From: Mytilus edulis
Lineage: Eukaryota
Direction: 5' to 3'
NCBI RefSeq assembly: GCF_963676685.1
Contig: NC_092344.1
Location: 66,464,001 to 66,528,000, forward strand
DNA: 64,000 nucleotides
Each line of letters starts with the position of its first letter. The stretch's first letter is position 1. Shown here one piece after another: positions 13,236 to 37,800 of this stretch. Position numbers and translations under genes: made by a program. The notes beneath the pieces were generated by a model that saw only the letters and a program-made list of their open reading frames with translations, made no database searches and was not told the DNA's origin.

Positions 13236-15894
13236 TAAAGTACCATCCTCAATTAGATCAGATCATACTTTATTGTCTTTCTATATTTAGATTTACTGCA
13301 TGTCTCCTAAAATAGTTTCTGTCATTGCTTAATAATGTGACAAGATGAAGGCTTGTCTAAGTGTAACATGTCCCAAAATAGATATTTTTGTAGTAAATGC
13401 AATCTTAATTTCATGTTAAGTTTTAAATGATACATTGGTTAATCATTCAAACTTACAATTTACTTTCTTTTAAGTACAGGATGACCGCGGAATGATGATT
13501 TAAAGAACTGAATTAGTATTAATTTGAGATACACTTGTATTTATATATATGTCCCGGATATTAATTATATTCATTTGCAAATTAGAGTTTGAAATCTTAT
13601 ACGTAAGATAGAAAAAATGTTAAGCAATTTGTCCAAGTATGAAAACCTTAAAGCTTCCAAAAATAGATTTCATTTAAAATTTTAAAAAGAAAAATTTATG
13701 TCAAGTGTGGTCCGTTTACATTTAAACATTATTAATATAAGAAAGTAAATGATAAGATCGTATTATATGCATTGAAATCAATAAAAATTGAAAAAATTCT
13801 AAAGTTATTCTAAGGAAATCAGCAGTATATGAATGGTAGTCGAGTCTGTGTAAACACAATGTGTTTTCTAATAATCCATAAGCTAACATGAATATTGTCT
13901 GAGCACTTCCGTTGAATTCAGGCCCAATATTTACATAGTATAAGTCTCATTACTACGTTTAAAACTTCCACTGTTCATGTTTCGCAATTCTAATTTTAGC
14001 GTTGCTATAAAAAGATCATTATCTAAACATGGGAATACTTATATTTAAAAATCAGTCAGTTGTTATTCGTAATGACACCAACGGTTTGACTAACAATTGA
14101 GACATTTCAACAAAGTTTACAAGTAGAATTGTCTTGTGACATGAAGATAAGACACTTAGGGTGTAATGCAGTTGACAAGTGTTTGTAGAGTGTCTGACTA
14201 TTTTACTTTTATGCATGTTGTTTTGTTGATCGTTAAGGGGTCAGGTTACCTAAATCTCTAGTGGGATTGTGTTCTTTCTACTTTCTCAGGAATTGAACTG
14301 ATTGGACTTTGCATTTTGCTATAGGGATAATTACTCGAAAAGTCCAGTTTGAAATAATGTTACAGTCTAAAAGTTACTATACAAAACGTTCAAAAAAATA
14401 TACTTAACTCCAAGGTTAATTCAAAACAAAATCAAACATTATCAACCAACAAAAGTATTGTAGGATATGAAACTGCTTTTAATCCGTTGCATGATTTTAG
14501 TTTATATTCATACATATCCTATCACACACTATGGGATGTATGGTTGCATGGGTGTTATATAATAACAAAAACTTACTATCTTTACTATTTTCATCTTGTT
14601 TGTTTTTCTTTAATTTTGAAATAATGTATTTAGGTTTTTGCAAGGTATGAAATTTTATTGATAAAAAGTTTCTTAGCAGAAAATTGATAAGTTTTACATT
14701 CTTGACCAACTTATTTGTACTTACATAATGGTTTATGAAATCACAAAAGATGTTAAATAAGTTTTCTGATCAAATAAATAAAAGATGAAAGAAATCCAGC
14801 GACTATATGAGACTGCATTCCAAAAAAAAAGAAATAGTAGACAAATTATAAAATTTAAAATCATATCAATTTATATATATTTTAATGGAACTTTTCACCA
14901 AGTAGTATTTCACATCAACTTAATAAAAACTTCAAGGATTATAGAATATATTACACTGATCAAAAGTCTAGATAAACTATAAAGTACTTAATCATGATTG
15001 TATCGGTTGGAAATGTTAAAATAAACTGTTTTAGAACCAGTGTGATAGGGTATAAAAAATGAAAAAAAAAAGCTGAAAATTTAAAAATGTTGACACAAGT
15101 AGTTATTGGGTTATCATTCAAATTCAGCCATATCTTTTCCAAATCAGTGTCTGTGGTGATCTTAACATAAACTGTAATATGAGTGTAACTACCAAGATCT
15201 AACAGAACCTTGCATTGTAAGATATTTTAAAAATTTTGAATGTTGAGAAAGTTACTTTACTGAAGGGCCCATGTTGTATTTATTGAAAGACGTCTCTGAG
15301 AGTTAAGTGATACTGATTTGTATAAAAGAACTTGGCATTGAATGATATGTTATGATTAGATTGGTAGAGAATACTTCTAAATGAAAGGTTTATTGAAAGA
15401 TCTAATTTCCCTGACAGTGGCAGTTCATGTAGTAAACTTTGATATTTTTTTTAATGATGTTGAATTTTATCAATAGTGTCTTTTCTGTATTAAACTTCTA
15501 CAACTTCTTCTTGGCATTGGACAAGATGTTGATAATTTAAATCTTGTTTTATAAGTTATTTTCATGTATTAATTGGTCATCAGTTTATTTTTAGTGTTGT
15601 GCTTGTGACTGGTTGCTATTTCATTGATGTACTCAGTGCTTAAAAGTGTACCAGTGAACAGCAAGAATTTGGTTCACCATAAAATGACTCTTCATGAGCC
15701 TCACTGTAGTTCACCTTTCTCATTATGCATGATGATCCAAAGCATTATGTACTTTTCATCTTAAATTTGTCAAAATTTAGTAGCCTGGAATACATAAATT
15801 GTCATATAAACAAATAAAAATAGGTATGTGACAAACACAAAAAAAAAACAACATTATATATGGAACGCCAACACTGTCTTATTATGCCCATTTT

Positions 15895-16485
15895 TCATTA
15901 TATGTTGTGCATTTACCTTTATATGATGTGCATTTACCTTTATATGATGTGCATTTACCTTTATATGATGTGCATTTACCTTTATATGATGTGCACTTGT
16001 CATCATATGATGTGCAAATATCCTTATATGATGTGCAAACATCATTATATGATGTGCAAACATCATTATATGATGTGCAAACATACTTATATGATGCGCA
16101 TATATACTTATATGATGTGCAAATATACTTATATGATGTGCAAATGTACTTATATGATGTGCAAACATTCTTATGTGATGTGAAAATATGCTTATATTAT
16201 GTTGTAAGATCCTTATATGATGTGCAAATATAGTTATATTATGTTGAAAGATCCTTATATGATGTGCAAATATACATATATGCTGTGCAAATATACTTAT
16301 ATGCTGTGCAAATATACTTATATGATGTGTACATATCATTATATGATGTGCAGTTTCCCTTATATTACGTGCAAACATCTTTATATGATGTGGTTGTGTC
16401 ATTATATTATGTGCTTGTAATCTTATATTATGTGGTTAGGTTTACTTCATTATATGATGTCGAAACGTCATTATATGATGTGCTT
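15895..16485 (+). repeat. 21-bp minisatellite (ttatatgatgtgcaaatatac) inside the left TIR
   Basis: Roughly 28 tandem units; accounts for the repetitive ORFs in several frames. Confidence 0.95.
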
Positions 16486-17324
16486 TCATCGTCGTTATGG
16501 TCAATGAACATGATTACGATTAGAATGATTACTGTCTACGTCATAACTGATTCCGATCTGCGTCTGCGGAGTAACCGTTATTACTAATTAGGATCAAATC
16601 TGTTGCTACCGTTTGGAAAATGGTTGAGACTTGAGATAAACCTTAGCATGTTAGTACCTCGTTTTAAGATGCAAAAAAATCACATCTGATATTGTTGGAA
16701 AATTGTAAAAAATATATATGAATTGCAAAGTTTTGTTTAAATCGCAAATCTTTAATAATAAACATACGGAGTCTTCAATACGGTTAAGGTTATTGAATTG
16801 AAGAAATAATTCTTTTATGTCATGCTATATGATCGTTTTAACGAGGGAAAGCATTATATTTGTCAATTTCGGTATACCTAACGTTAGCAATTTTTCTATA
16901 AGAAGATAATACACGAAGTTTAGTATTTTCATTTATGTAAATATTGCCTTTCTGATCATGGTTAGCTGTTCGAGTTTCTCTTTATATATTCTCAAGATAG
17001 ACACAAACAATTGGGAATAAATCGGACTCTGATAGAGTAATGGCTCATATAAGGAACCGGTCATTTGTAACAAAAAAAAGAGGGGATAGGAAAAGTGGCA
17101 TTCAATTTTATATAGTTATAAATTTGCCGCGGTATAATGTTATGGCGAATTCTTCGTCAACCGTAGGCATCAATCTTTACGCCTCGTTTCGCTCATCTGA
17201 ATTGTTAAAACCTGAAAATTTAGTTTCAACAATTTCTTCTAGCAGAGAATTTTTCATCTGATGCTATTATTGAATGAAGGTGTGGTAAATATTAATGAAA
17301 CCACAAACGGCAAATCCAAACTAA

Positions 17325-17698
17325 TATAAAAAAGAAGATGTGATATGATTGCCAATGAGACAACTATCCACAAAAGACCAAAATGACACAAACATTAACA
17401 ACTATAGGTCATCGTACGGCCTTCAACAATGAGCAAAGCCCATACCGCATAGTCAGCTATAAAAGGCCCCGATAAGAAAATGTAAAACAATTGAAACGAG
17501 AAAACTAACGGCCTTATTTATGTAAAAAAAAAATGAACGAAAAACAAATATGTAACACAAAAACAAACGACAACCACTGAATCACAGGCTCCTGACTTGG
17601 GACAGACACATACATAAATAATGTGGCGGGGTAAAACATGTTAGCGGGATCCCCCCCCCCCCCTAACCTGGAAAGTGGTATAACAGTGCAACATAAGA
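17325..17698 (-). mobile_element. Interspersed repeat family A copy with a degenerate twister motif (17573-17679)
   Basis: Same sequence recurs at ~10845-11010, 19382-19542, ~21525-21640 and ~22060-22200. Carries ctgtcccaagtcagga and ccccgc, but UAA is changed to UUA and GAGGG is lost in a poly-G run. Confidence 0.8.
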
Positions 17699-17904
17699 AT
17701 AAACTAGTTCCCTGAAGTCGCAAACGATTTTCATACTTCAGTACTTTGATTATATATGTTCTTGTCTATACCTTACAAGAAAAGATTTCTCTATTATTAG
17801 TTATCAAGATAATAGCCAATAAAACAACAAAACTCTGAAAAGCCAAAACTACCCAAAAAGTACCTTTACTATAGAGTATATTCAGACACATTGCACTATT
17901 TGTT

Positions 17905-18110
17905 TTTTTTAAATCTTTTATGTTTCCAGGATAAACGCAAAATATTAAAAGCCGCTGCCGTAAATCTTCACTTTGGAAATTCAAAACACCACTCTCTATA
18001 TGTAAGAGAACAACAGGTCTCAGTAAAAAATAAATAAATGCAGTGTTTTAAGTTCATTTAGACACCAGATTAAAAACGCTCAATTCTCTGGTTTTGTTGG
18101 ATTGATACAC
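17905..18110 (-). pseudogene. Remnant of an integrase-core (DDE) segment, NQRIER motif
   Basis: Minus strand SIQQNQRIERF* with NQRIER at 18076-18093, followed after disruptions by ESGVLNF...LIFCVYP. Similar to the S..NQRIER.W motif of IS3-like eukaryotic transposases. Confidence 0.5.
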
Positions 18111-18584
18111 ACCTTCAAAAATTTGAAGGCTGAAATGTCATTGGCTGATGTAATATATACAAGGACAGAAAATAAAATGACGTGTTGTCAGATCCTTGTA
18201 TCCAAAGCTGAAACAGATGATCTGTACATTATATATTAATAAATAAATGTGTTAGACACCGACTCTAGTTTGAGGGAAGGAGCACGTGTATTTCCTTTTT
18301 CGAAATTAAAAAAACAACAAAAAACATGGTTTATTTTTTTTTAAGTTTCATCATTGTTTTATTTTTTCCTCATTTTAAATAGAAACAAACTATTTCGCTT
18401 CCCTTCTGAAATAGATAAAATCTCTTTCAAGAAATTTAGAATCAAACGTTTAAAAAACAACTTGCCCCCCACCCTCACATAAAAATATCAATGGTCGGTA
18501 AGTTAGCCCTGTTTAATTGAGTCTAGAGGTGAATACTAGTATATGAGCGGCTTCCCACGAAACCTTTTATATTGCGGGTTACTG

Positions 18585-18885
18585 CATGTCTAGTGGTGGT
18601 ACTTTCGTCGTAGTATATTCGCCTTGAGAGGTCGTGGGTTCGAACCCCGGCCGGGTCAAAACCAAAGACTTTAAAATTCTTATTTACATGCTGCTTCCCA
18701 GCTAATTATATAAGCACGCGGGATTAAGGATTAAGAGCAAAAGCTGGTCGGCTCGGAATCAGAAAAATGTGTCCGGGTAAGGTGAAATACATGTCTTCCT
18801 TCGGAATGCTTCCTTTTGAACTAGCATGTTAAAAAGTCCGGCTCAGGGTGTCGGTCTAGTACAAAACAGGGTTAATATTCATACC
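18585..18885 (+). mobile_element. tRNA-derived SINE with a Meta/MESC-like central domain
   Basis: Pol III B-box GGTTCGAACCC at 18637-47, followed by ggtcaaaaccaaagactttaaaatt...gctgcttccc..gctaa...gcacgc, which resembles the Meta domain of mollusc SINEs. Confidence 0.7.
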
Positions 18886-18889
18886 ACAT

Positions 18890-19180
18890 TAAAATTGAGA
18901 ATGGAAATGGGGAATGTGTCAAAGAGACAACAACCCGACCAAATAAAAAAACAACAGCAGAAGGTCACCAACAGGTCTTCAATGTAGCGAGAAATTCCCG
19001 CACCCGGAGGCGTCCTTCAGCTGGCCCCTAAACAAATATATACTAGTTCAGTGATAATTTACGCCATACTAATTTCCAAATTGTACACAAGAAACTAAAA
19101 TTAAAATAATACAAGACTAACAAAGGCCAGAGGCTCCTGACTTGGGACAGGCGCAAAAATGCGGCGGGGTTAAACATGTT
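18890..19180 (-). mobile_element. Family B copy, 5'-truncated within the twister motif
   Basis: Reverse complement of ~57156-57443; ends at the aacatgtt palindrome. Confidence 0.85.
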
Positions 19181-19360
19181 CTTGTACGAATATGCATATA
19201 TCAATTTGCTGCTGGACCTCAAGAATCCACCCATAATCATCTATAGTTGAAACTGTGAAATATATGCACAAAAAACATGATAAAAAGCTGCACGTTAATG
19301 TAATACACCGAGTTCTGGTTCATTCCATATCTCCTTTCATCCATTTCGGGTGAAAGTGAT

Positions 19361-19775
19361 GGGCGCTGGGTGGTTGAGTGGTTACATTGTCATTTCGTGG
19401 CCTTTTATAGCTGAATATGCGGTATGGGCTTTGATCATTGTTGTAGGCCGTACGGTGACCTTTACTTGTTAATTTCTGTGTCATTTTGACCTATTGTGGA
19501 GAGTTGTCTCTTTAGCAGTCATACCACTTCTTCTTTTTTATAAGTAGTCGAACTGCTGTATCACTAGCATGTCAACCCTTAGGTGTGCGATTTCAAATCC
19601 CGCACGTGGCAGGTAAGCTCGATTCCAATCTTAATTGACCAGAATTGTATGTTTTCCAAACAAAGGTCAGGGGGTCTCTCCGGGCACTTTTGCTTTCTCC
19701 ACCAATATAAACTCACCGCCACGAAATAGCATGAAAGTGTTGAAAGTTGCGCGAAATAACAGTCAATCAATCATC
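19361..19775 (+). mobile_element. V-domain-like SINE interrupted by a family A fragment (19382-19542)
   Basis: tctctccgggcact...tctccaccaatataaactcaccgccacga core and (caat)n tail. The head is contiguous in the uninterrupted copy at 32958. Confidence 0.7.
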
Positions 19776-19989
19776 CATACCGGTATACTTATGGCCTCTA
19801 AATCTATATAATAGCAATGTCAATGTATGACATCAGTATACAGAGATAAAAATAATAACTATTTACAGTATATACAAAACAAGAGAGAGAGAGGTTTCAA
19901 AATTACTAAGCCAGCTGGAGGACAAACGCACGTGTTTATATATTTTTTATAAACGAACAAGCTGAAGTTGACATTTTACAGAAATCTTA

Positions 19990-20480
19990 TACATCCTTCC
20001 TGTTTTCAAGTTTTCGTACATGGCTTAAAGCCTTATCGGATAAATGTTTTTTGTCATATTGAAATTTCCCGTTTTAGTAACAACAATACCCAAATAGTTA
20101 TATTGTTTTATCATCTCAATGTTAGTATCATTGTAAGAAAATCGAAGATTTTTTGGCATCCGTCCAAAAAAAAACCTCACTAAGACTTTAATTTTGACAA
20201 CTTTCCTTTCAAGTTCCAAGCCTTACAATAATCATGGAAAGCATTGAGTTGAGTCTGCAGGTCCTGTGCTGTTTCAGCCAACAACACCGTGTCATCTGCA
20301 AACAATATAACAAAACACTTAAGATATATTTCTAATTCTCTTTCCAGATTTTCTGGTATAGTTCTGTTAAGTCATGTAATATTTCTAGTCACTAAGAAAT
20401 TATTTTAGTCAATCAAAAGTAAATAAAATAGGAAAGGTGATAAGTTTTCTCCTTGTCGAACACCATTGTCACAAGCAAGC
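19990..20480 (-). pseudogene. Non-LTR retrotransposon (LINE) reverse transcriptase fragment
   Basis: Minus strand GVRQGENLSP (20435-20464), LFADDTVLLA (FADD at 20291-20302) and YNYLG in ORF 20025-20219; stops and frameshifts between the motifs. Confidence 0.9.
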
Positions 20481-22202
20481 AAAGTATTCCGAATTATAAT
20501 TACTATTTTGTATCATCGGTACAGCGGATATAGCTTTGTAGGTACTTCGAAGCATGAAAAACTATATACCGTACATTCATTTAACTATGCACCGTACAGA
20601 ACGATTCATGTGGTCAGCTATACACAACGCTTCTTGTCGGAATAAAATATCGAAAAATAACATATGTACAAAATATTTCAATGCCAATTATTGAAACAGC
20701 TATACTTATTACGCACAAACAGTGGCCTTCTATCAGAAAAAGAGTTGCAATGAATATAGAATCATATCGGATGAAACGAGCGCCAACTTCTTTGACAAGT
20801 ATTTGCACATGTTTTTAGTAAGGATTCTTGTTTTGGGCAAATAGTGAGACTAATCACCAACCTACGACCAAAACATTTCTTAAAACAACAAATATGTTTA
20901 GATTGAAGTACACATTGATATAATGTAAACAAAACAAAGATTTTCGTACCGTGTCAGAAGAAAAATCGATCACGACCCCTTGGTTAGTACCTATATCCGC
21001 TGTACCGATGATACAAGGAGACGCCAGCGAGTGGGCAAGTGTTGAAACAAAGAATGATGATACAGTAATAAGGTGGACACAGTAATGACAAAGTTAATGC
21101 TTTTTATTCTATTTTTTGTTAAAGAGACGAAAAAGAGGAACAAAATGCGAAAGACGGGCGTCACCCCATTCATCTCGGTTGGAAAATAAAAATATTAAAT
21201 ACCCTAAATTGGAAAAAGTGTGGCAAAGTGTGATTTTCAGTGTTTTTTCCCCCCTTTTAACTCAATAACTGTATCGTCTACGTAAAATCCGTTGCCATTA
21301 CCGAAAAGGATCAAAATAAGTACCTCAAAGGTAAAATCCGATCTAATTGGACAAAAAATTAAATCTAAAACACTTCATCAGGAATCAACCCCTTATATCT
21401 TAGAAATCGTTAACGCTACTCCAAATCTGTTGACATACTAGTACTAATGTTTCAGATTTTTATTAGCAATTAAAAAAATCTTTATTAAAATAAGTTGAAA
21501 ATAAACAATCTGTATATGCCAATATGTGCTCATTGTTGAATACCGTATGGTGACCTATAGTCATTAGTTTCTGTGTAATTTGGTCTGTTGTGGAGAGTTG
21601 TCTCATTAGCAAAGATACCACTTTTTCATTTTTTATAATTTCCCACATAGCCATTTCGCATTTTGTGGGCACTACGTCGACTAAGCTTGCAGTCTTCGAA
21701 ATTGGGTATTTTCTCACATAATTGGCGTTTTCTGTGGAAAAAAGATTGGTTCAAAGACAAATTAAAAGTCCTATCACACATATTTCCGACTTGGTATGGT
21801 TTTAGAGGAGTTGCGACTCAATGAAATCGGTCTACTCCTTTAGTAGCACAGATTATATGATATACTAGATATAATATCATTGTACATATTCAATACTACA
21901 TTATACATCTTACCATTTACAGATTAATATTATTCAATAACATTTTATAAAACAAACCATCTCGCCATAGTATGCATCAGTAGATAATTGTATAGCTATT
22001 GTTATGAAATATTTTTGAAACAGACTGTGATTTCAATGGTGTCTTTTGCAATAAATAGAAATAAGCAGATGTGGTATGAGAGCCACTGAGACAACTCTCC
22101 ATCCAAGTCATAATTTGTAAGAGGAAACAATTATAGGTCATAGTACGACCTTCAACACGGAGCCTATGCTTAAACCGAATAGCAAGTTATAAAAGGCTCT
22201 TA

Positions 22203-22343
22203 TTTGTTATCATTTTCTCCACAGCCGGAGATTTCTTCAACTAGCTCCTGTATCAACTGATTTTAATCTTCAACCGAAATGTTTGAAACGTTGATTTTGT
22301 TAAATTGCTTTGTCTCATTTTCCCTATAAATTGCACTTTCGCT
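22203..22343 (-). pseudogene. Remnant of an IS3EU-type transposase N-terminal region
   Basis: With compensating frameshifts it reads SESAIYRKMRQSNLTKSTFSNISVED*NQLIQELVEEISGCGE, resembling the recalled S..TIYRRM...L....S.IS.E.L.......CGE pattern. Not database-verified. Confidence 0.5.
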
Positions 22344-22459
22344 AGCGATAGACACATATTTGAGCCGGGTTAATAATTTACAGAAGCAGATCGGAATCAG
22401 TTATGACGTAGACAGTAATCATTCTAATCGTAATCATGTTCATTGACCATAACGACGAT

Positions 22460-23050
22460 GAAAGCACATCATATAATGACGTTTCGACATCATATAATGA
22501 AGTAAACCTAACCACATAATATAAGATTACAAGCACATAATATAATGACACAACCACATCATATAAAGATGTTTGCACGTAATATAAGGGAAACTGCACA
22601 TCATATAAGGATATGTACACACCATATAAGGATCTTTGCACATCATATAAGTATATTTGCACATCATATAAGGATCTTTGCACATAATATAAGTACATTT
22701 GCACATCATGTAATAATGTTTGCACATCATATAAGAATGTTTGCACATCATATAAGAATGTTTGCACATCATATAAGTATATTTGCACATCATATAAGTA
22801 TATTTGCACATCATATGAGTATGTATGCACATCATATAAGTATGTTTGCACATACTATAATGATGTTTGCACACCATATAAGGATATTTGCACATCATAT
22901 AAGGATATTTGCACATCATATAAAGGTGTTTGCACATCATATAATGACAAGTGCACATAATATAATGACAAGTGCACATCATAAAAAGGTAAAAACACAG
23001 CATATAAAGGTAAATGCACATCATATAAAGGTAAATGCACATCATATAAG
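22460..23050 (-). repeat. 21-bp minisatellite inside the right TIR (inverted copy)
   Basis: Tandem tgcacatcatataag units, the reverse complement of the left array. Confidence 0.95.
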
Positions 23051-24557
23051 GAAAATGGTCATAACAAGACAGTGTTGGCGTTCCATAATTATAAACAATA
23101 TTTCATTTAAAAAGACAAATTGTAAATAATAAGTATTTGTCTTTGATAGGGGTTAATAGTTGTCTGGTTCATTTTTCTACTCATGCCTACTCATTTAAAC
23201 CTGAACAACATTAGGACAATACCAGTATAAGATTCCTTATTGGCCTGATCAGGAAGTAAACACAAGAATCACTAAGAATTGTCACTAAATGACAGATGTT
23301 TCGCTAAGAAACTTGTCTTATATATATAATGTCACATGAAGAGAGAGAGACTTAATGAGATTGGACGACAGCTGTTTTATCACTTCCTTACTGAAGTCCA
23401 TGTTTCTTTTGTAAACAATTCTGTTGCTCAGCTGTTACTAAACTCTGATGCTGTTTTTGAATACAGAAAAGTACCTGGGTATAATGATTATTAGCTTCCC
23501 TTTGATGTTTGTAGTTTATTTTCGTTGATGACCTTTTAAACTCTGATAAAATATTCACTTTCTGTAAAAAAAAAAGATAATGGCTTGTATTTTAATATGG
23601 AAATTGGATGATTTTCAAAATACATACCTGTCAAATATTGATATGTAGGGAGTTAATAGGTATATATGTAAGTAAAATAACACTAGAGAATGGAATGTTG
23701 TAAAAGTACATTTATCTATGTTATCGTCTCAGATTGAAATTTTTGTGTTTAAAGTTGAATAAAATCTGGTTACCCTATGATATAAAGATTATTGACATAT
23801 TCTCAATTCAGAAAGCCCAATTTACAAATATATTTGTTTATTGAACTTAAAAAGTCTTATATTGGAATTTTAATTTTATCTTGATAAAAAGGTTTTGGCA
23901 TAACATAGTTCTTATGTGTACATTTAACTGTCACTTTCATGATTAACCCTTTACTAGTTTCCAACGTCCCCTACTCTACTAAAAAATACCTAAATAACTC
24001 GCACTTTCATGAGTAACCCTTTTCAAAATGTTCCCTGAACCCCCACCCCACCCTATCTGACCCTAAATTGATTTATTCTAATGGTTCCACAGTAGGGGAG
24101 TTCTTACATCAATAATTTCTGTACCATTCTGACATCCTTTAATTCTAAAATACAGTGCATGTGTGATTCTGATAACCACAAAAATATAAATTTAACATTT
24201 TTGCTAAATTTATGAGCCAACTGATGTTTGTTATTCTTGACAATCATCCCATTTTAAACTGAACTTGAATTATTTAAAGAAGAATAAATTGAGAAACAAC
24301 AGAGAAAAGATTAAAGATTAAATCTACCATTAGATTTTGGCACAAATGCAAAAGTTATTCTCTTCTATCCAAACGCTTCTTATCATTATACAAAATAAAC
24401 AAGTCATATTGATACAATTATGTGTCTAACAGTCAATCACAGATAGTCTAAACAGTACTGTCCCCCATCAATACATTGGGTTATTAATAGATTCTCTTGC
24501 ATATGCAAAACAGTTGTTTTTCATTCATATGTTCTTGTTTTGACTTAAATGTACTTA

Positions 24558-33314: not shown

Positions 33315-34072
33315 GTCACCTTTAGTCGAAAGTTTCAATAATAGAGATCACCCTAATATAATCTAAAGTTTCAGTAATCAAGATCAACATGAGTTCAGAG
33401 TTTAAGTAATAGAGATCACCCTCAGTCCAAAGTTTAAGTAATAGAGATCACCCTCATTCCAAAGTTTAAGTAATAGAGATCACCCTCAGTCCAAAGTTTA
33501 AGTAATAGAGATCACCCTCAGTCCAAAGTTTAAGTAATAGAGATCACCCTCAGTCCAAAGTTTAAGTAATAGAGATCACCCTCAGTCCAAAGTTTAAGTA
33601 ATAGAGATCACCCTCAGTCCAAAGTTTCAGTAATAGAGATCACCCTCAGTCCAAAGTTTCAGTAATAGAGATCACCTTTTAAGTCCAAAGTTTCAGTAAT
33701 AGAGATCACCTTTTAAGTCCAAAGTTTCAGTAATAGAGATCACCCTCAGTCCAAAGTTTCAGTAATAGAGATCACCTTTTAAGTCCAAAGTTTCAGGAAT
33801 AGAGATCACCCTCAGTCCAAAGTTTCAGTAATAGAGATCACCCTCAGTCCAAAGTTTAAGTAATAGAGATCACCCTCAGTCCAAAGTTTAAGTAATAGAG
33901 ATCACCCTCAGTCCAAAGTTTAAGTAATAGAGATCACCCTCAGTCCAAAGTTTCAGTAATAGAGATCACCCTCAGTCCAAAGTTTAAGTAATAGAGATCA
34001 CCCTCAGTCCAAAGTTTAAGTAATAGAGATCACCTTTTAAGTCCAAAGTTTCAGGAATAGAGATCACCTTTA
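33315..34072. repeat. 32-bp minisatellite (agtccaaagtttaagtaatagagatcaccctc), about 23 units with 34-bp variants
   Basis: Highly homogeneous tandem array with degenerate units at the left edge. Confidence 0.95.
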
Positions 34073-34782
34073 GCAACTGCCTACAGTCAAAGAAAACTTT
34101 TATAGGCAGAGAAAATGTTCAATATGTTGTTGAGATAGCTTGCATGTCAGAACACCATAAAATCTCAGACTTATGTCTCCTAATCTGTTAATTAGCTATA
34201 AGAAGATATGATACATTATTAAGATGCAAGAGATCTGTTTATATGGTAATAAGAACACGAGATGGGTTTTTTTTTCCTGCAGGAAATCCAATAGGAATCC
34301 AATAGAATTTACATTAAGCAGCTTTTAAAACTCATTCAATGTATCAAAGAGGTTAAAAGCATTCAAATGCCAAATTGTAAAAGAAGGCCTTTTATGTGTT
34401 TGTGATACAGTAAAGATATAATTTTATATGAGTGGTGTTTTATGATTGCTAATAAGACAAAGACAAGGATGAAATAACCATAGATAATAGATGCCTAATA
34501 CTGTGATTTCCATTTGTTATGGTCTTTAAAGGCTTTATGTAGATATTACAATAACAGTTGTTTGAGTATATAACAAATGAATTTAACAGCATAATTTGCA
34601 TTCTTCACTACTTGATTTATTGTACTACTCTTCTTTATTTCAGAAAGGGCAGTGTTTAAATTGTAAGATGAAATGGATGGTTTGTTATGTAATGCTGTAT
34701 ATGACACTTTATTTTGAATTGAAAAATGAATTAACTCTAAATAATGTTTATATAAAATTTTATATTTTTTTTTATTTTCCAG

Positions 34783-34883
34783 ATATACAAGTTGGCATTA
34801 CAAGACTGTAGCCAGTATAAAAGTTGTGGTGAATGCAGAGGGGCAAATGATCCATTCTGTGGCTGGTGTTCTTTGGAAGACAA
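34783..34883 (+). CDS. Plexin exon: start of PSI-1 (IYKLALQDCSQYKSCGECRGANDPFCGWCSLED)
   Basis: Pyrimidine tract ttttattttccAG acceptor, GTAAGT donor at 34884; C..C..C....DP.CGWC motif; phase 0 in, phase 2 out. Confidence 0.95.
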
Positions 34884-37800
34884 GTAAGTTTAGACAAGTG
34901 CTCCTTAATTGGTATATCCGTTTTCCCTTCTCTGGACCAATATAACCAGTTTCCCCCCCCCAGTATGGTTCTTTTTACAAATTTAATTAGATTCTAACTA
35001 AGTTAATGATTTTATTCTCCTTTCCACCATTTTAATGAATGTTACCTTGTCTTCAAAACAATTTCCAAATAATTCCTCATTGTTGGAGCACCCCTCTGTC
35101 CTTGATTTTTACTTGGTTAATGTATCCAACTGCTTAATTCAGCCTCTACGAAAATTGTGAATACAATCAAATTCTAAAACTGTTACATTATTATGTAATT
35201 CTTAATTCTTATGTAATATTGCAGATAAAAGATTTATTTTTAATAACAATATTGCAGATAAAAGATTTATTTTTAATAACAATATTGCAGATAAAAGATT
35301 TATTCTTATGTAATATCGTGGATAAAGATTAAACTCATAATTTTACATTTATGTATATTATTCGTGGTGATCTTTAACTCATAATTCTTTTATTTATGCA
35401 TATTATTGACGTTGATCTAAACAAAGTTAATGATTGTTGTCAACCTTTATACGGAAGTGTCAAAATTGTCGAATTTTTAATCTGACGTCTTATATATGTT
35501 TTACCATATCATTAACATACCAGGTAATTTAACATCCAATACAGGTGCTTTATTAAGATGAGTGATTATTCGGTGACTTTATAAATAAATCAGAATAATA
35601 TAAAACATTCTAGATGCCTGCAGCTACTGTTACAATTTCTATTGTGTAATGTTGTGCACATTCCTGGCGTGGAAGATTTAATTGAATTAAATTACAAAAA
35701 AGGATTAAACGATTTTTAAAGATTTGAGTTACTAATCCAATTAATTAAGTAATAAGGATAGCTGTTAATCTTTGTTAATAGCTGTTGGAATGCTCAATAC
35801 ACATTTCACAGCGACATTTTGGGATTGGCTCGGTCAAATATTCAATGCTCTGCCAGATAACTCTCCGTCATCTTTGTGTTTTAAGTCCTATTTATAGTTC
35901 TTCTGTAATGAAAAAGATTGACCGCACTTAATGCTATGAGCAACTATTAAAGGTAGAGACTCTGTTTTGTAAAAATTGACTACTCTTAAGGCTATGTATG
36001 AACAACTATTAGAAATAAAGTTTCTGTTTTATAAAAGATTGGCAACCCTTATTATATGGGAAGCTATGAGAAACTATAACAAAGGAAAAACAAGAAATTT
36101 AGTAAAATTTGACACAAACAAATATTGGTAATCCTAATTCGCTGTTTCAGAATGTAATGCATCCTGGGTAATATTTCCCAAAACGTACACCAAAACGTTG
36201 TGATTGGTTTACAACGTGATAAACAAAGGAAATTCAACCAATGACGTAACGTTATTTTCATTTTGGGGTACAAACAATGAGATTACCCATAGTCCTTTAG
36301 ATTCTGAAAAGGCGAATTGCTTACAAACTGGCATATATCCTGCACCGTGCCTATACTGTATGAACACCCCAAATATGAATAAAAGAGTTTAAAAGTCAGT
36401 TGTTCAAAGACTTAAGGGTTGTATTTTTCCTAAAGTTTGAGATTTAGGATTGTGATTTATGTGCAAATAAACAAAAATGATTTTAAGAACATTTAACATC
36501 TTGGATTTTTCAGAAACTTTAATTAGTATTGCTTATTTATTAATTGCCTCATTTCAAGATGCTGTAGAAAACTTTCACCTTCCTTGCAGAAAGCTACAGA
36601 AGTAATGACCTATGTGCGTTAGACTTATAACTTGACTTGTCAGAGTTGTTGCATAGTTTCCAACTCTCTCCGTGATGTTCTATTCTCCCTGGATAGTCAA
36701 TTATAATAATTATGGAAATTTGGTTAGGATATTTTCCATTAAACTGACTCATTTCTCATAGGAGTACATACTTTAACTTTTGTTCAGTTCAATGCCATCT
36801 TAACCAATTGCTATAATTGCCCAATATAATATAGCAGCGTAAGAATTTTCCGTGTATATCGTAATGAACAATCGTTGGATACAGGACTTGTATAAAGTTT
36901 GACAGAACATATAAATTACTTTGCAGACCGATATTGAATATTCCGAGCTTTCCTCTTTTATTTGGTAGAAATTATTTGATGAATAGTCATGGGTATTTCG
37001 AACGTCTTTTGAGAAAAGAAGAATGAAAGATGTAATCAATATTACTGTTACCCTGATGATACATTAATCTGGTTCCTGGTCTAGGCATTTATAGCCATTA
37101 TCTGTCTCCTGGAAACTATCTTGTGAAGAATATTTTATAGAAGTTGAAAATAACATTGAAATATAGCTCTGCATTTTTTTTTATAGAAACATTAGAATAC
37201 TAAAAAGTTATTTTAGATTTTCTTTTTCCATTTCAATAAGTTATGTTCACTGAATGATTTTTATACATTTTGCAGACTTTAATTATTGTTTTTTAGGATG
37301 AAACAGAGATTTTAGTCAATGTTTTTAAATTGTTGGGTTGTTGCCATTAATATCAGGAATTAAGGAAATAACACATTTGATGGGCCTTTTGATTTCTATT
37401 CAGTCAGATTTCGTCAGATCTTAATCGCATTTACATTGTTAGCTTTTCAATCATTTCTGCATTACATAGGAAAAACAAAAACAAACTCTGAAAAACACTG
37501 TTTTATTTTTACTTAGATAGTTTTGGCAAACTCATCATTTAGTGTAACTAGGTATACTCACTTCCTGAATTGAGGCTTTAAACTTTTTTTTAAACATTTT
37601 ATGTTAAATTTAGGTAAACATTAATGCATTGATTCTTTTACTTTTTTATAGTTTTTGTCAACAGATATTTACACAGCTTCCAAGTCACAAAAGACTGCTT
37701 GACAAACAAGAAAAAATGACTTTTTCAGTTGAATTTCAGCTTTCATATTTACCATTTGATATAGTGTTATACATGTACATGATATAGGACATTCACATTT

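What the first reader, a model, noticed from the sequence alone, without database searches (positions are those of the whole stretch)
15859..23087. 7.2-kb IS3EU-like transposon with minisatellite-built 700-bp TIRs
Two 21-bp arrays 6 kb apart are the arms of one element: matching termini TATGGAACGCC, 708/707-bp TIRs and a 6-bp ATTATA duplication. IS3EU is a small, little-studied superfamily. The inner unique part of the TIRs is almost identical between arms while the repeat units differ and the transposase is ruined, suggesting recent mobilisation in trans. In plexin pre-mRNA the arms could form a ~700-bp dsRNA stem.
Basis: partly seen in the sequence, partly recalled or inferred. Interest (0 to 1): 0.7.

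Follow-up and report, generated by a model that had tools for sequence, protein, structure and literature searches.

The report
IS3EU foldback transposon with 21-bp arrays
This is a recently inserted 7.2-kb jumping element, absent at this spot in other individuals, that has lost its enzyme; its mirror-image ends are rows of 21-base repeats, a layout shared by most IS3EU transposon families examined in this genome, and the repeats likely serve as docking sites for the transposase.

Summary
Confirmed. 15859-23087 is one element with TATGG termini, 708/707-bp arms of 28 repeat units each, and an ATTATA duplication. It belongs to a family of at least ~115 copies; 30 of 32 paired copies have an exact 6-bp duplication. 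Contigs of 5 of 8 public runs carry the empty site with one ATTATA, so the insertion is polymorphic. It is a non-autonomous IS3EU: transposase-bearing elements share the 11-bp terminus, and their cores match Repbase IS3EU (closest by eye IS3EU-3_CGi). Two corrections. The near-identical inner arms are inherited, not a clock. No catalytic core exists in 53 copies, only N-terminal scraps at both ends: both ends match the 5' end of a parental element, so the family likely arose as two 5' ends head to head around captured DNA. The wider result: 64 of 74 such termini lead into a 21-bp array with family-specific units, and a distant IS3EU clade has 21-22-bp arrays too. These are likely transposase sites, as in IS21, Tn7 and foldback elements; binding is untested. 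The scan found IS3EU-type foldback and transposase-less elements before in other genomes. The dsRNA idea is untested.

The parts
15859..23087 (.). whole non-autonomous IS3EU element, 7229 bp
   Evidence: empty site
15853..15858 (+). left copy of the 6-bp target duplication
   Evidence: single copy at the empty site
23088..23093 (+). right copy of the 6-bp target duplication
15859..16566 (+). left arm (708 bp): terminus, 28 units of the 21-bp repeat, inner unique part
22381..23087 (-). right arm (707 bp), same build
16496..16566 (+). inner unique arm segment; occurs once, on the 5' side, in the parental type of element (93-94% over 70 bp)
16567..16778 (+). decayed start of the parental transposase gene; 16481-16778 aligns with parent 623-918, 226 of 309 columns
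   Evidence: profile hits in sister copies
22212..22346 (-). decayed helix-turn-helix piece of the transposase, 45 codons, 60% identical to the parent, E 3.6e-11
20046..20494 (-). LINE reverse-transcriptase fragment carried in the interior
   Evidence: RVT_1 E 4.9e-7; tblastn
17322..17706 (.). common interspersed repeat inside the element (others at 19374-19546, 21524-21640, 22045-22197)
   Evidence: each shared with 24-36 of 111 unrelated stretches
18887..19180 (.). interspersed repeat inserted in this subfamily only (shared with L031 and L048)
34756..34884 (+). first plexin PSI exon downstream (host gene, not part of the element)
   Evidence: PSI E 3.8e-8; TIG and PSI exons at 41.2 and 62.1 kb; Sema exons about 16 kb before the window

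Best explanation
A non-autonomous IS3EU/GingerRoot DNA transposon, inserted recently with a 6-bp duplication and likely moved in trans by an IS3EU transposase that would bind the 21-bp units in its arms. Both ends match the 5' end of a transposase-bearing relative, so the family likely arose when two 5' ends facing each other were moved as one unit with the DNA between them; this explains the long arms, the duplicated inner segment and the missing catalytic core. The arrays gain and lose whole 21-bp units, likely by slippage. The period is inferred to be the footprint of the tandem helix-turn-helix domains, two DNA turns, as in IS21, Tn7 and Mu ends.
For: Shown: 30 of 32 paired copies with an exact 6-bp duplication, 17 of 20 sister copies. 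Empty site in 5 of 8 runs. Nearest copies 0.9% apart. Same 11-bp terminus on transposase elements; 7 of 20 such loci gave both ends with a 6-bp duplication. Their cores match the published IS3EU alignment by eye. Parent type: arms only 345 bp, inner segment on the 5' side only; the left end runs into the ORF start, the right end into the HTH; N-terminal scraps in 50 of 53 copies, core in 0 of 53. 64 of 74 terminus matches lead into a 21-bp array and none into another period; control DNA of 101,650 bases had no 21-bp array. A second clade (100/100 split) has 21-bp (B, F, G) and 22-bp (H) arrays with different units. 49 of 61 arm lengths fall in two adjacent classes modulo 21. The transposase model (pLDDT 89) has a helical N-terminal part with HTH-type matches and an integrase-type core; top matches IstA, retroviral integrases, TnsB. 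Precedent: IstA repeats 23 bp apart bound by tandem HTH, 22-bp TnsB sites, Galileo and Muta1 arm repeats bind transposase.
Against: Binding was not tested. No intact cognate transposase was found: the nearest relative (C12, 79% over the end) has a break after the core and no second end within about 15 kb. Families C, D and E showed no array and family A has a 19-20-bp period; D looks young and intact, so arrays are not needed by every IS3EU. Very short copies (352 and 970 bp) have exact duplications. Units of the TATGGAACGCC clade share a core, so their common period is not independent. The HTH matches are weak (Z 6-7). No single-copy donor of the interior was identified.
Confidence: 0.72

Rival explanations
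1. The element is IS3EU, but the arrays are neutral. One ancestral 21-bp duplication next to the terminus expanded by slippage, and the period persists by descent while the units drift.
For: Shared core among the units of one clade; unit number ranges from about 5 to 56; families C, D, E have none; arrays keep their period without selection (general knowledge).
Against: The period is 21-22 in a clade separated by long branches and with unlike units; arrays begin at a similar short distance from the terminus; experimental precedent in related and unrelated transposases.
Confidence: 0.2
2. The element is a plain internal-deletion derivative whose 3' end was overwritten by its own 5' end through conversion or template switching, and the interior filled up later, without capture of flanking DNA.
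For: Arm-to-arm exchange happens in this family: variants carried by 15 left arms and 1 right arm are absent from the young subfamily, and four copies share variants on both arms. L060/61 and L062/63 have arms of 3.7 and 2.0 kb.
Against: Outside the ends, the interior matches the parent only at common repeats. The two ends keep different parts of the parental gene. This rival changes only the origin, not the classification.
Confidence: 0.3
3. Two independent insertions, or another superfamily with TA duplications.
For: The flanks also read TA on both sides.
Against: Exact 6-bp duplications of many different sequences in 30 of 32 copies; shared interior in most copies; empty site with one ATTATA.
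Confidence: 0.01
4. The arms act in the plexin pre-mRNA as a long double-stranded stem with a regulatory role.
For: 651 pairs in a computed duplex, -999 kcal/mol; lies between Sema and PSI exons on one strand.
Against: The insertion is recent and polymorphic and one of over 100 copies; the arms are 5.8 kb apart. Any copy in an intron would give the same stem.
Confidence: 0.05

Closest known systems
IS3EU/GingerRoot superfamily; nearest named member by eye IS3EU-3_CGi of Pacific oyster (PMC10045372: passages and supplement passages read; PMC6839031, PMC12730594: passages, and Table S1 rows for the latter)
   Same: TA..TA (TAYGG..CCRTA) termini, 6-bp duplication, integrase-type DDE transposase in relatives; core motifs of relatives match IS3EU-3_CGi, IS3EU-1_SK and IS3EU-1_CVi.
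   Different: No catalytic core; arms of 700 bp against 100-150 bp in GingerRoot and over 30 bp in fungal IS3EU; arms built of a 21-bp array, not mentioned in the passages read and not visible by eye in the first 400 bases of three fungal consensus rows; both ends of 5' type. Repbase entries were not seen.
Foldback-type elements: Galileo (P superfamily; PMC3688188, abstract and outline) and Muta1 (MULE; PMC5499845, passages)
   Same: Long arms of tandem repeats; there the repeats bind transposase, and in Muta1 more repeats raise excision.
   Different: Other transposase superfamilies; Muta1 has 8-9-bp duplications and a 12-bp unit with 3-4-bp linkers.
IS21 (IstA), Tn7-like (TnsB) and Mu ends (PMC10122671, PMC9371665, PMC8649781: passages)
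   Same: Integrase-type core, tandem HTH domains, repeated sites 22-23 bp in size or spacing near the ends.
   Different: Prokaryotic, 2-4 sites per end instead of about 10-30, helper ATPases; fold match covers mainly the core.

Membership tests
IS3EU/GingerRoot | TA..TA termini (TAYGG..CCRTA) | tested here: met
   definition
IS3EU/GingerRoot | 6-bp target duplication of variable sequence | tested here: met
   30 of 32, 17 of 20 sister copies, empty site
IS3EU/GingerRoot | terminal inverted repeats | tested here: met
IS3EU/GingerRoot | link to an IS3EU-type DDE transposase (for a non-autonomous family: shared ends and remnants) | tested here: met
   shared terminus; parent end 79% over 734 bp; HTH remnant E 3.6e-11; relatives rva_4 E 1.5e-68 and motif match by eye to the Repbase alignment
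IS3EU/GingerRoot | placement in a tree with Repbase IS3EU proteins | not tested
   published sequences were compared by eye only; the tree holds 11 rows from this genome
autonomous IS3EU | own intact DDE transposase gene | tested here: not met
   core in 0 of 53 copies;
Foldback-type element (structural class) | long arms made of subterminal tandem repeats | tested here: met
   28 units per arm; 61 of 62 arms with best period 21
Foldback-type element (structural class) | repeats bind the transposase | not testable with these tools
   needs a binding assay
Tc1/mariner-type elements with TA duplication | TA duplication | tested here: not met
   empty site keeps one ATTATA

The most novel reading that the evidence does not exclude
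Animal IS3EU transposons have turned the two to four end sites of their IS21/Tn7/Mu-like relatives into self-amplifying arrays of 10-30 sites held at two DNA turns, with a family-specific unit as a recognition code. Any two inward-facing ends can be moved together, which makes foldback elements with captured DNA and, as in family D, giant elements with a transposase gene in each 6-kb arm.
Probability: 0.45. Interest if true: 0.62.

Novelty: new variant of a known kind. Interest (0 to 1): 0.42.

Why it matters
IS3EU has no described mechanism in the papers seen here (PMC11934779 calls its structure and function largely unexplored). This genome offers several families, each with its own transposase and its own 21-bp unit: a ready set for testing how the enzyme reads its ends and whether spacing matters. 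It also traces one origin of scattered 21-bp minisatellites and of long hairpin elements, and gives a 7.2-kb presence/absence marker in a likely plexin intron. The single insertion itself is ordinary.

Tried and rejected
Arm identity as a clock: rejected. A decayed catalytic core inside the element: none by tblastn or profile in 33 copies and none in 53; the long broken ORF in the middle is LINE RT. Search for an intact cognate transposase: about 90 loci picked from 151 rva_4 matches (only 150 of 421 candidates scored) and 87 N-terminal matches gave one close relative, broken; absence is not shown. Metagenome scan for relatives in other animals: 1 locus, 99% identical to L123 and frameshifted, so generality beyond this genome is untested. 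Runs X12, X2 and X7 did not span the junction and say nothing. The filled junction appeared in one contig of X15 with only 26 letters on the element side, under the tool's bridging threshold. Nesting of L038 in the end of another copy (lead from e1-8630879): not supported, the upstream copy is a 351-bp stub about 6.5 kb away. No plexin exon found among 52 + strand ORFs upstream of the element within the window (short exons would be missed). Base composition of target sites was not computed. Literature: IS3EU (62 papers, 40 listed), IS3EU/subterminal/tandem repeat/transposase binding, foldback + IS3EU (1 paper), 21-bp + TIR + 6-bp + mollusc, Mytilus + TIR showed no description of 21-bp arrays in IS3EU arms. 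The Kojima 2019 review is not held and Repbase Reports were not seen; either may describe them. No RNA run was examined.
Full report
Observation. The sequence shows identical 22-bp termini at 15859 and 23087, ATTATA on both sides, and arms of 708 and 707 bp; the longest ungapped inverted pair is 675 nt at 91%. Each arm holds 28 units, spaced 21 bp in 26 of 27 intervals. The host is called a mussel in earlier notes of this scan; I did not test that.

A family, not a one-off. The terminus occurs 341 times with at most one mismatch, the reversed control 0 times. 109 of these are a sister terminus, leaving about 115 copies of this family and about 55 of the sister, as lower bounds. From the first 100 listed ends I picked 33 facing pairs; 32 had both ends in the fetched stretch, 30 with an exact 6-bp duplication, one with 5 bp, one with none. 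Of 20 sister pairs, 17 had one. Most 200-bp bins of the interior are shared by 22-26 of 28 other copies. Among 23 full copies the nearest differ from this one by 0.9% of interior bases, the farthest by 8.7%; the closest pairs differ by 0.3-0.4%.

Empty site. In 5 of 8 runs laid (X15, X5, X9, X18, X11; five studies, three organism labels), contigs follow the left flank and continue directly into the right flank with one ATTATA. Three runs did not span the junction. The insertion is therefore polymorphic, and the rival of two independent insertions is dead.

Superfamily. Published IS3EU features are TA..TA termini and usually 6-bp duplications (PMC10045372, passages), TAYGG..CCRTA in fungi (PMC12730594, passages). 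The Pfam family rva_4 (accession recalled) has 151 scored matches in the genome. Of the top 30 loci, 13 carry the same 11-bp terminus within 1.5 kb; of 20 loci extended, 7 gave both ends with a 6-bp duplication and arms of 284-366 bp, one interrupted. Their cores match the IS3EU rows of the supplement of PMC10045372 by eye, best IS3EU-3_CGi; a second group matches IS3EU-1_CGi and IS3EU-1_DR. The two groups split at 100/100 in a tree of 11 rows.

What is left of the gene. Profile search found a 46-residue piece in the window element (E 0.005; best copy 1.2e-5; reversed control at best 0.33). A wider search found the nearest transposase-bearing relative on C12 and a deletion derivative of it. 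Its end is 79% identical to ours over 734 bp; its gene has two exons with apparent splice signals and a break after the core. Against it, the right end of the window element continues into the HTH (22212-22346, 60%, E 3.6e-11) and the left end into the ORF start (16481-16778, 226 of 309 columns). The inner unique arm segment occurs once in the parental type, on the 5' side, and the derivative's arms are only 345 bp. 50 of 53 copies keep N-terminal scraps, none the core. So both ends are 5' ends. I infer a head-to-head pair moved with the DNA between; overwriting of one end by the other is the rival. The interior holds a LINE RT fragment and five common repeats.

Arm identity is inherited. The inner 232 bp differ at 2 places between the window's arms, but the left arm equals those of L031 and L048 and the right arm those of L032 and L044; in 28 of 29 copies another copy's left arm is nearer than the own right arm. 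Variants on 15 left arms and 1 right arm are missing from the young subfamily, which fits one old arm-to-arm exchange. Arm lengths step by 21: 49 of 61 fall in two adjacent classes.

The 21-bp period is clade-wide. In 72 transposase-selected loci, 64 of 74 matches to the 11-bp terminus lead into a 21-bp array, 10 into none, none into another period; six of the ten look like chance matches inside the gene (inferred). At least eight families have their own unit. In the second clade, B, F and G have 21-bp and H 22-bp arrays; C, D and E show none, and A, an intron-bearing family, has 19-20 bp; only the ends of D and F were confirmed by duplications. Control DNA of 101,650 bases held no 21-bp array of four or more units.

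Mechanism. A relative's transposase folds with pLDDT 89. Foldseek ranks IstA first (E 4.9e-7, low TM), then retroviral integrases and TnsB; VIA ties them at Z about 16, rmsd 3.0-3.9, on the core, with weak HTH matches of Z 6-7 for residues 7-63 and 65-127. IstA binds repeats 23 bp apart with tandem HTH domains (PMC10122671, passages); TnsB sites are 22 bp (PMC9371665, PMC8649781, passages). Arm repeats bind transposase in Galileo (PMC3688188, abstract) and raise excision in Muta1 (PMC5499845, passages). Shown here: anatomy, family, duplication, polymorphism, descent of the ends, period. Inferred: binding to the units, movement in trans, capture. Against: families without arrays, shared descent of the period, no intact cognate enzyme found.

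Host gene. Sema exons lie about 16 kb before the window on the + strand, PSI and TIG exons from 34.8 kb on; one plexin gene is inferred from domain order. The arms could pair (651 pairs), but no RNA was examined, and a recent polymorphic copy among over 100 is unlikely to be a tuned regulator.

Novelty. A new non-autonomous family of a known superfamily with a foldback build. Searches showed no account of 21-bp arrays in IS3EU arms; PMC6839031 has no hit for tandem repeat or satellite, PMC10294476 none for IS3; PMC8268682 lists two oyster satellites as IS3EU-linked and an unassigned 21-bp one (table passage). Repbase and the Kojima review were not seen. The scan has noted IS3EU-type foldback and transposase-less elements in other genomes. 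Verdict: real, known kind, new variant; interest 0.42, carried by the clade-wide arrays rather than by this copy.

Noticed in passing
G000:C7:42305980-42325665 (L104-L106); copies on C10, C14, C4 (L170-L175): Family D: a 19.7-kb IS3EU with 6,024-bp arms 99.9% identical, each holding the same 436-residue open transposase frame; 6-bp duplication in 4 of 4 copies checked. More paired hits on C3 and C5. No 21-bp array. Looks young and worth its own study.
   Followed up: partly
L060+L061 (C9:64084494-64095386) and L062+L063 (C4:77680488-77691867): 10.9- and 11.4-kb relatives with the right-hand part on both sides, arms of 3.7 and 2.0 kb at 97-98%, exact 6-bp duplications.
   Followed up: partly
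L157+L158 (C1:84813500-84833499): Another long palindromic region with transposase pieces facing outward, 13 kb apart; ends not located.
   Followed up: no
regions G and H (C1:61870500-61890499; C6:74519000-74538999): Long ORFs (604 and 699 residues) opposite the IS3EU transposase that look HECT-ligase-like by eye, possibly a second gene; not scanned.
   Followed up: no
family A, five near-identical copies (C1:52164219 and C5, C5, C6, C12): Intron-bearing IS3EU transposase with equal scores at five places and a 19-20-bp array near the likely end; possibly active.
   Followed up: partly
L064 (C2:107677464-107683500): A 4.9-kb insert with a 931-residue gag-like ORF sits about 70 bp inside the left arm of a family copy.
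   Followed up: no
G000:C1:66407268-66413008 (-) and 66447649-66448702 (+): Two Sema-domain genes in divergent orientation just upstream of the window.
   Followed up: no
window 33316-34068: 32-bp minisatellite, 23 copies, 91% matches, about 700 bp before the first PSI exon.
   Followed up: no
run X2, contig at window 15827-15858: A contig from another locus matches the 32 bases ending in the target hexamer and then diverges; the flank is partly repetitive.
   Followed up: no
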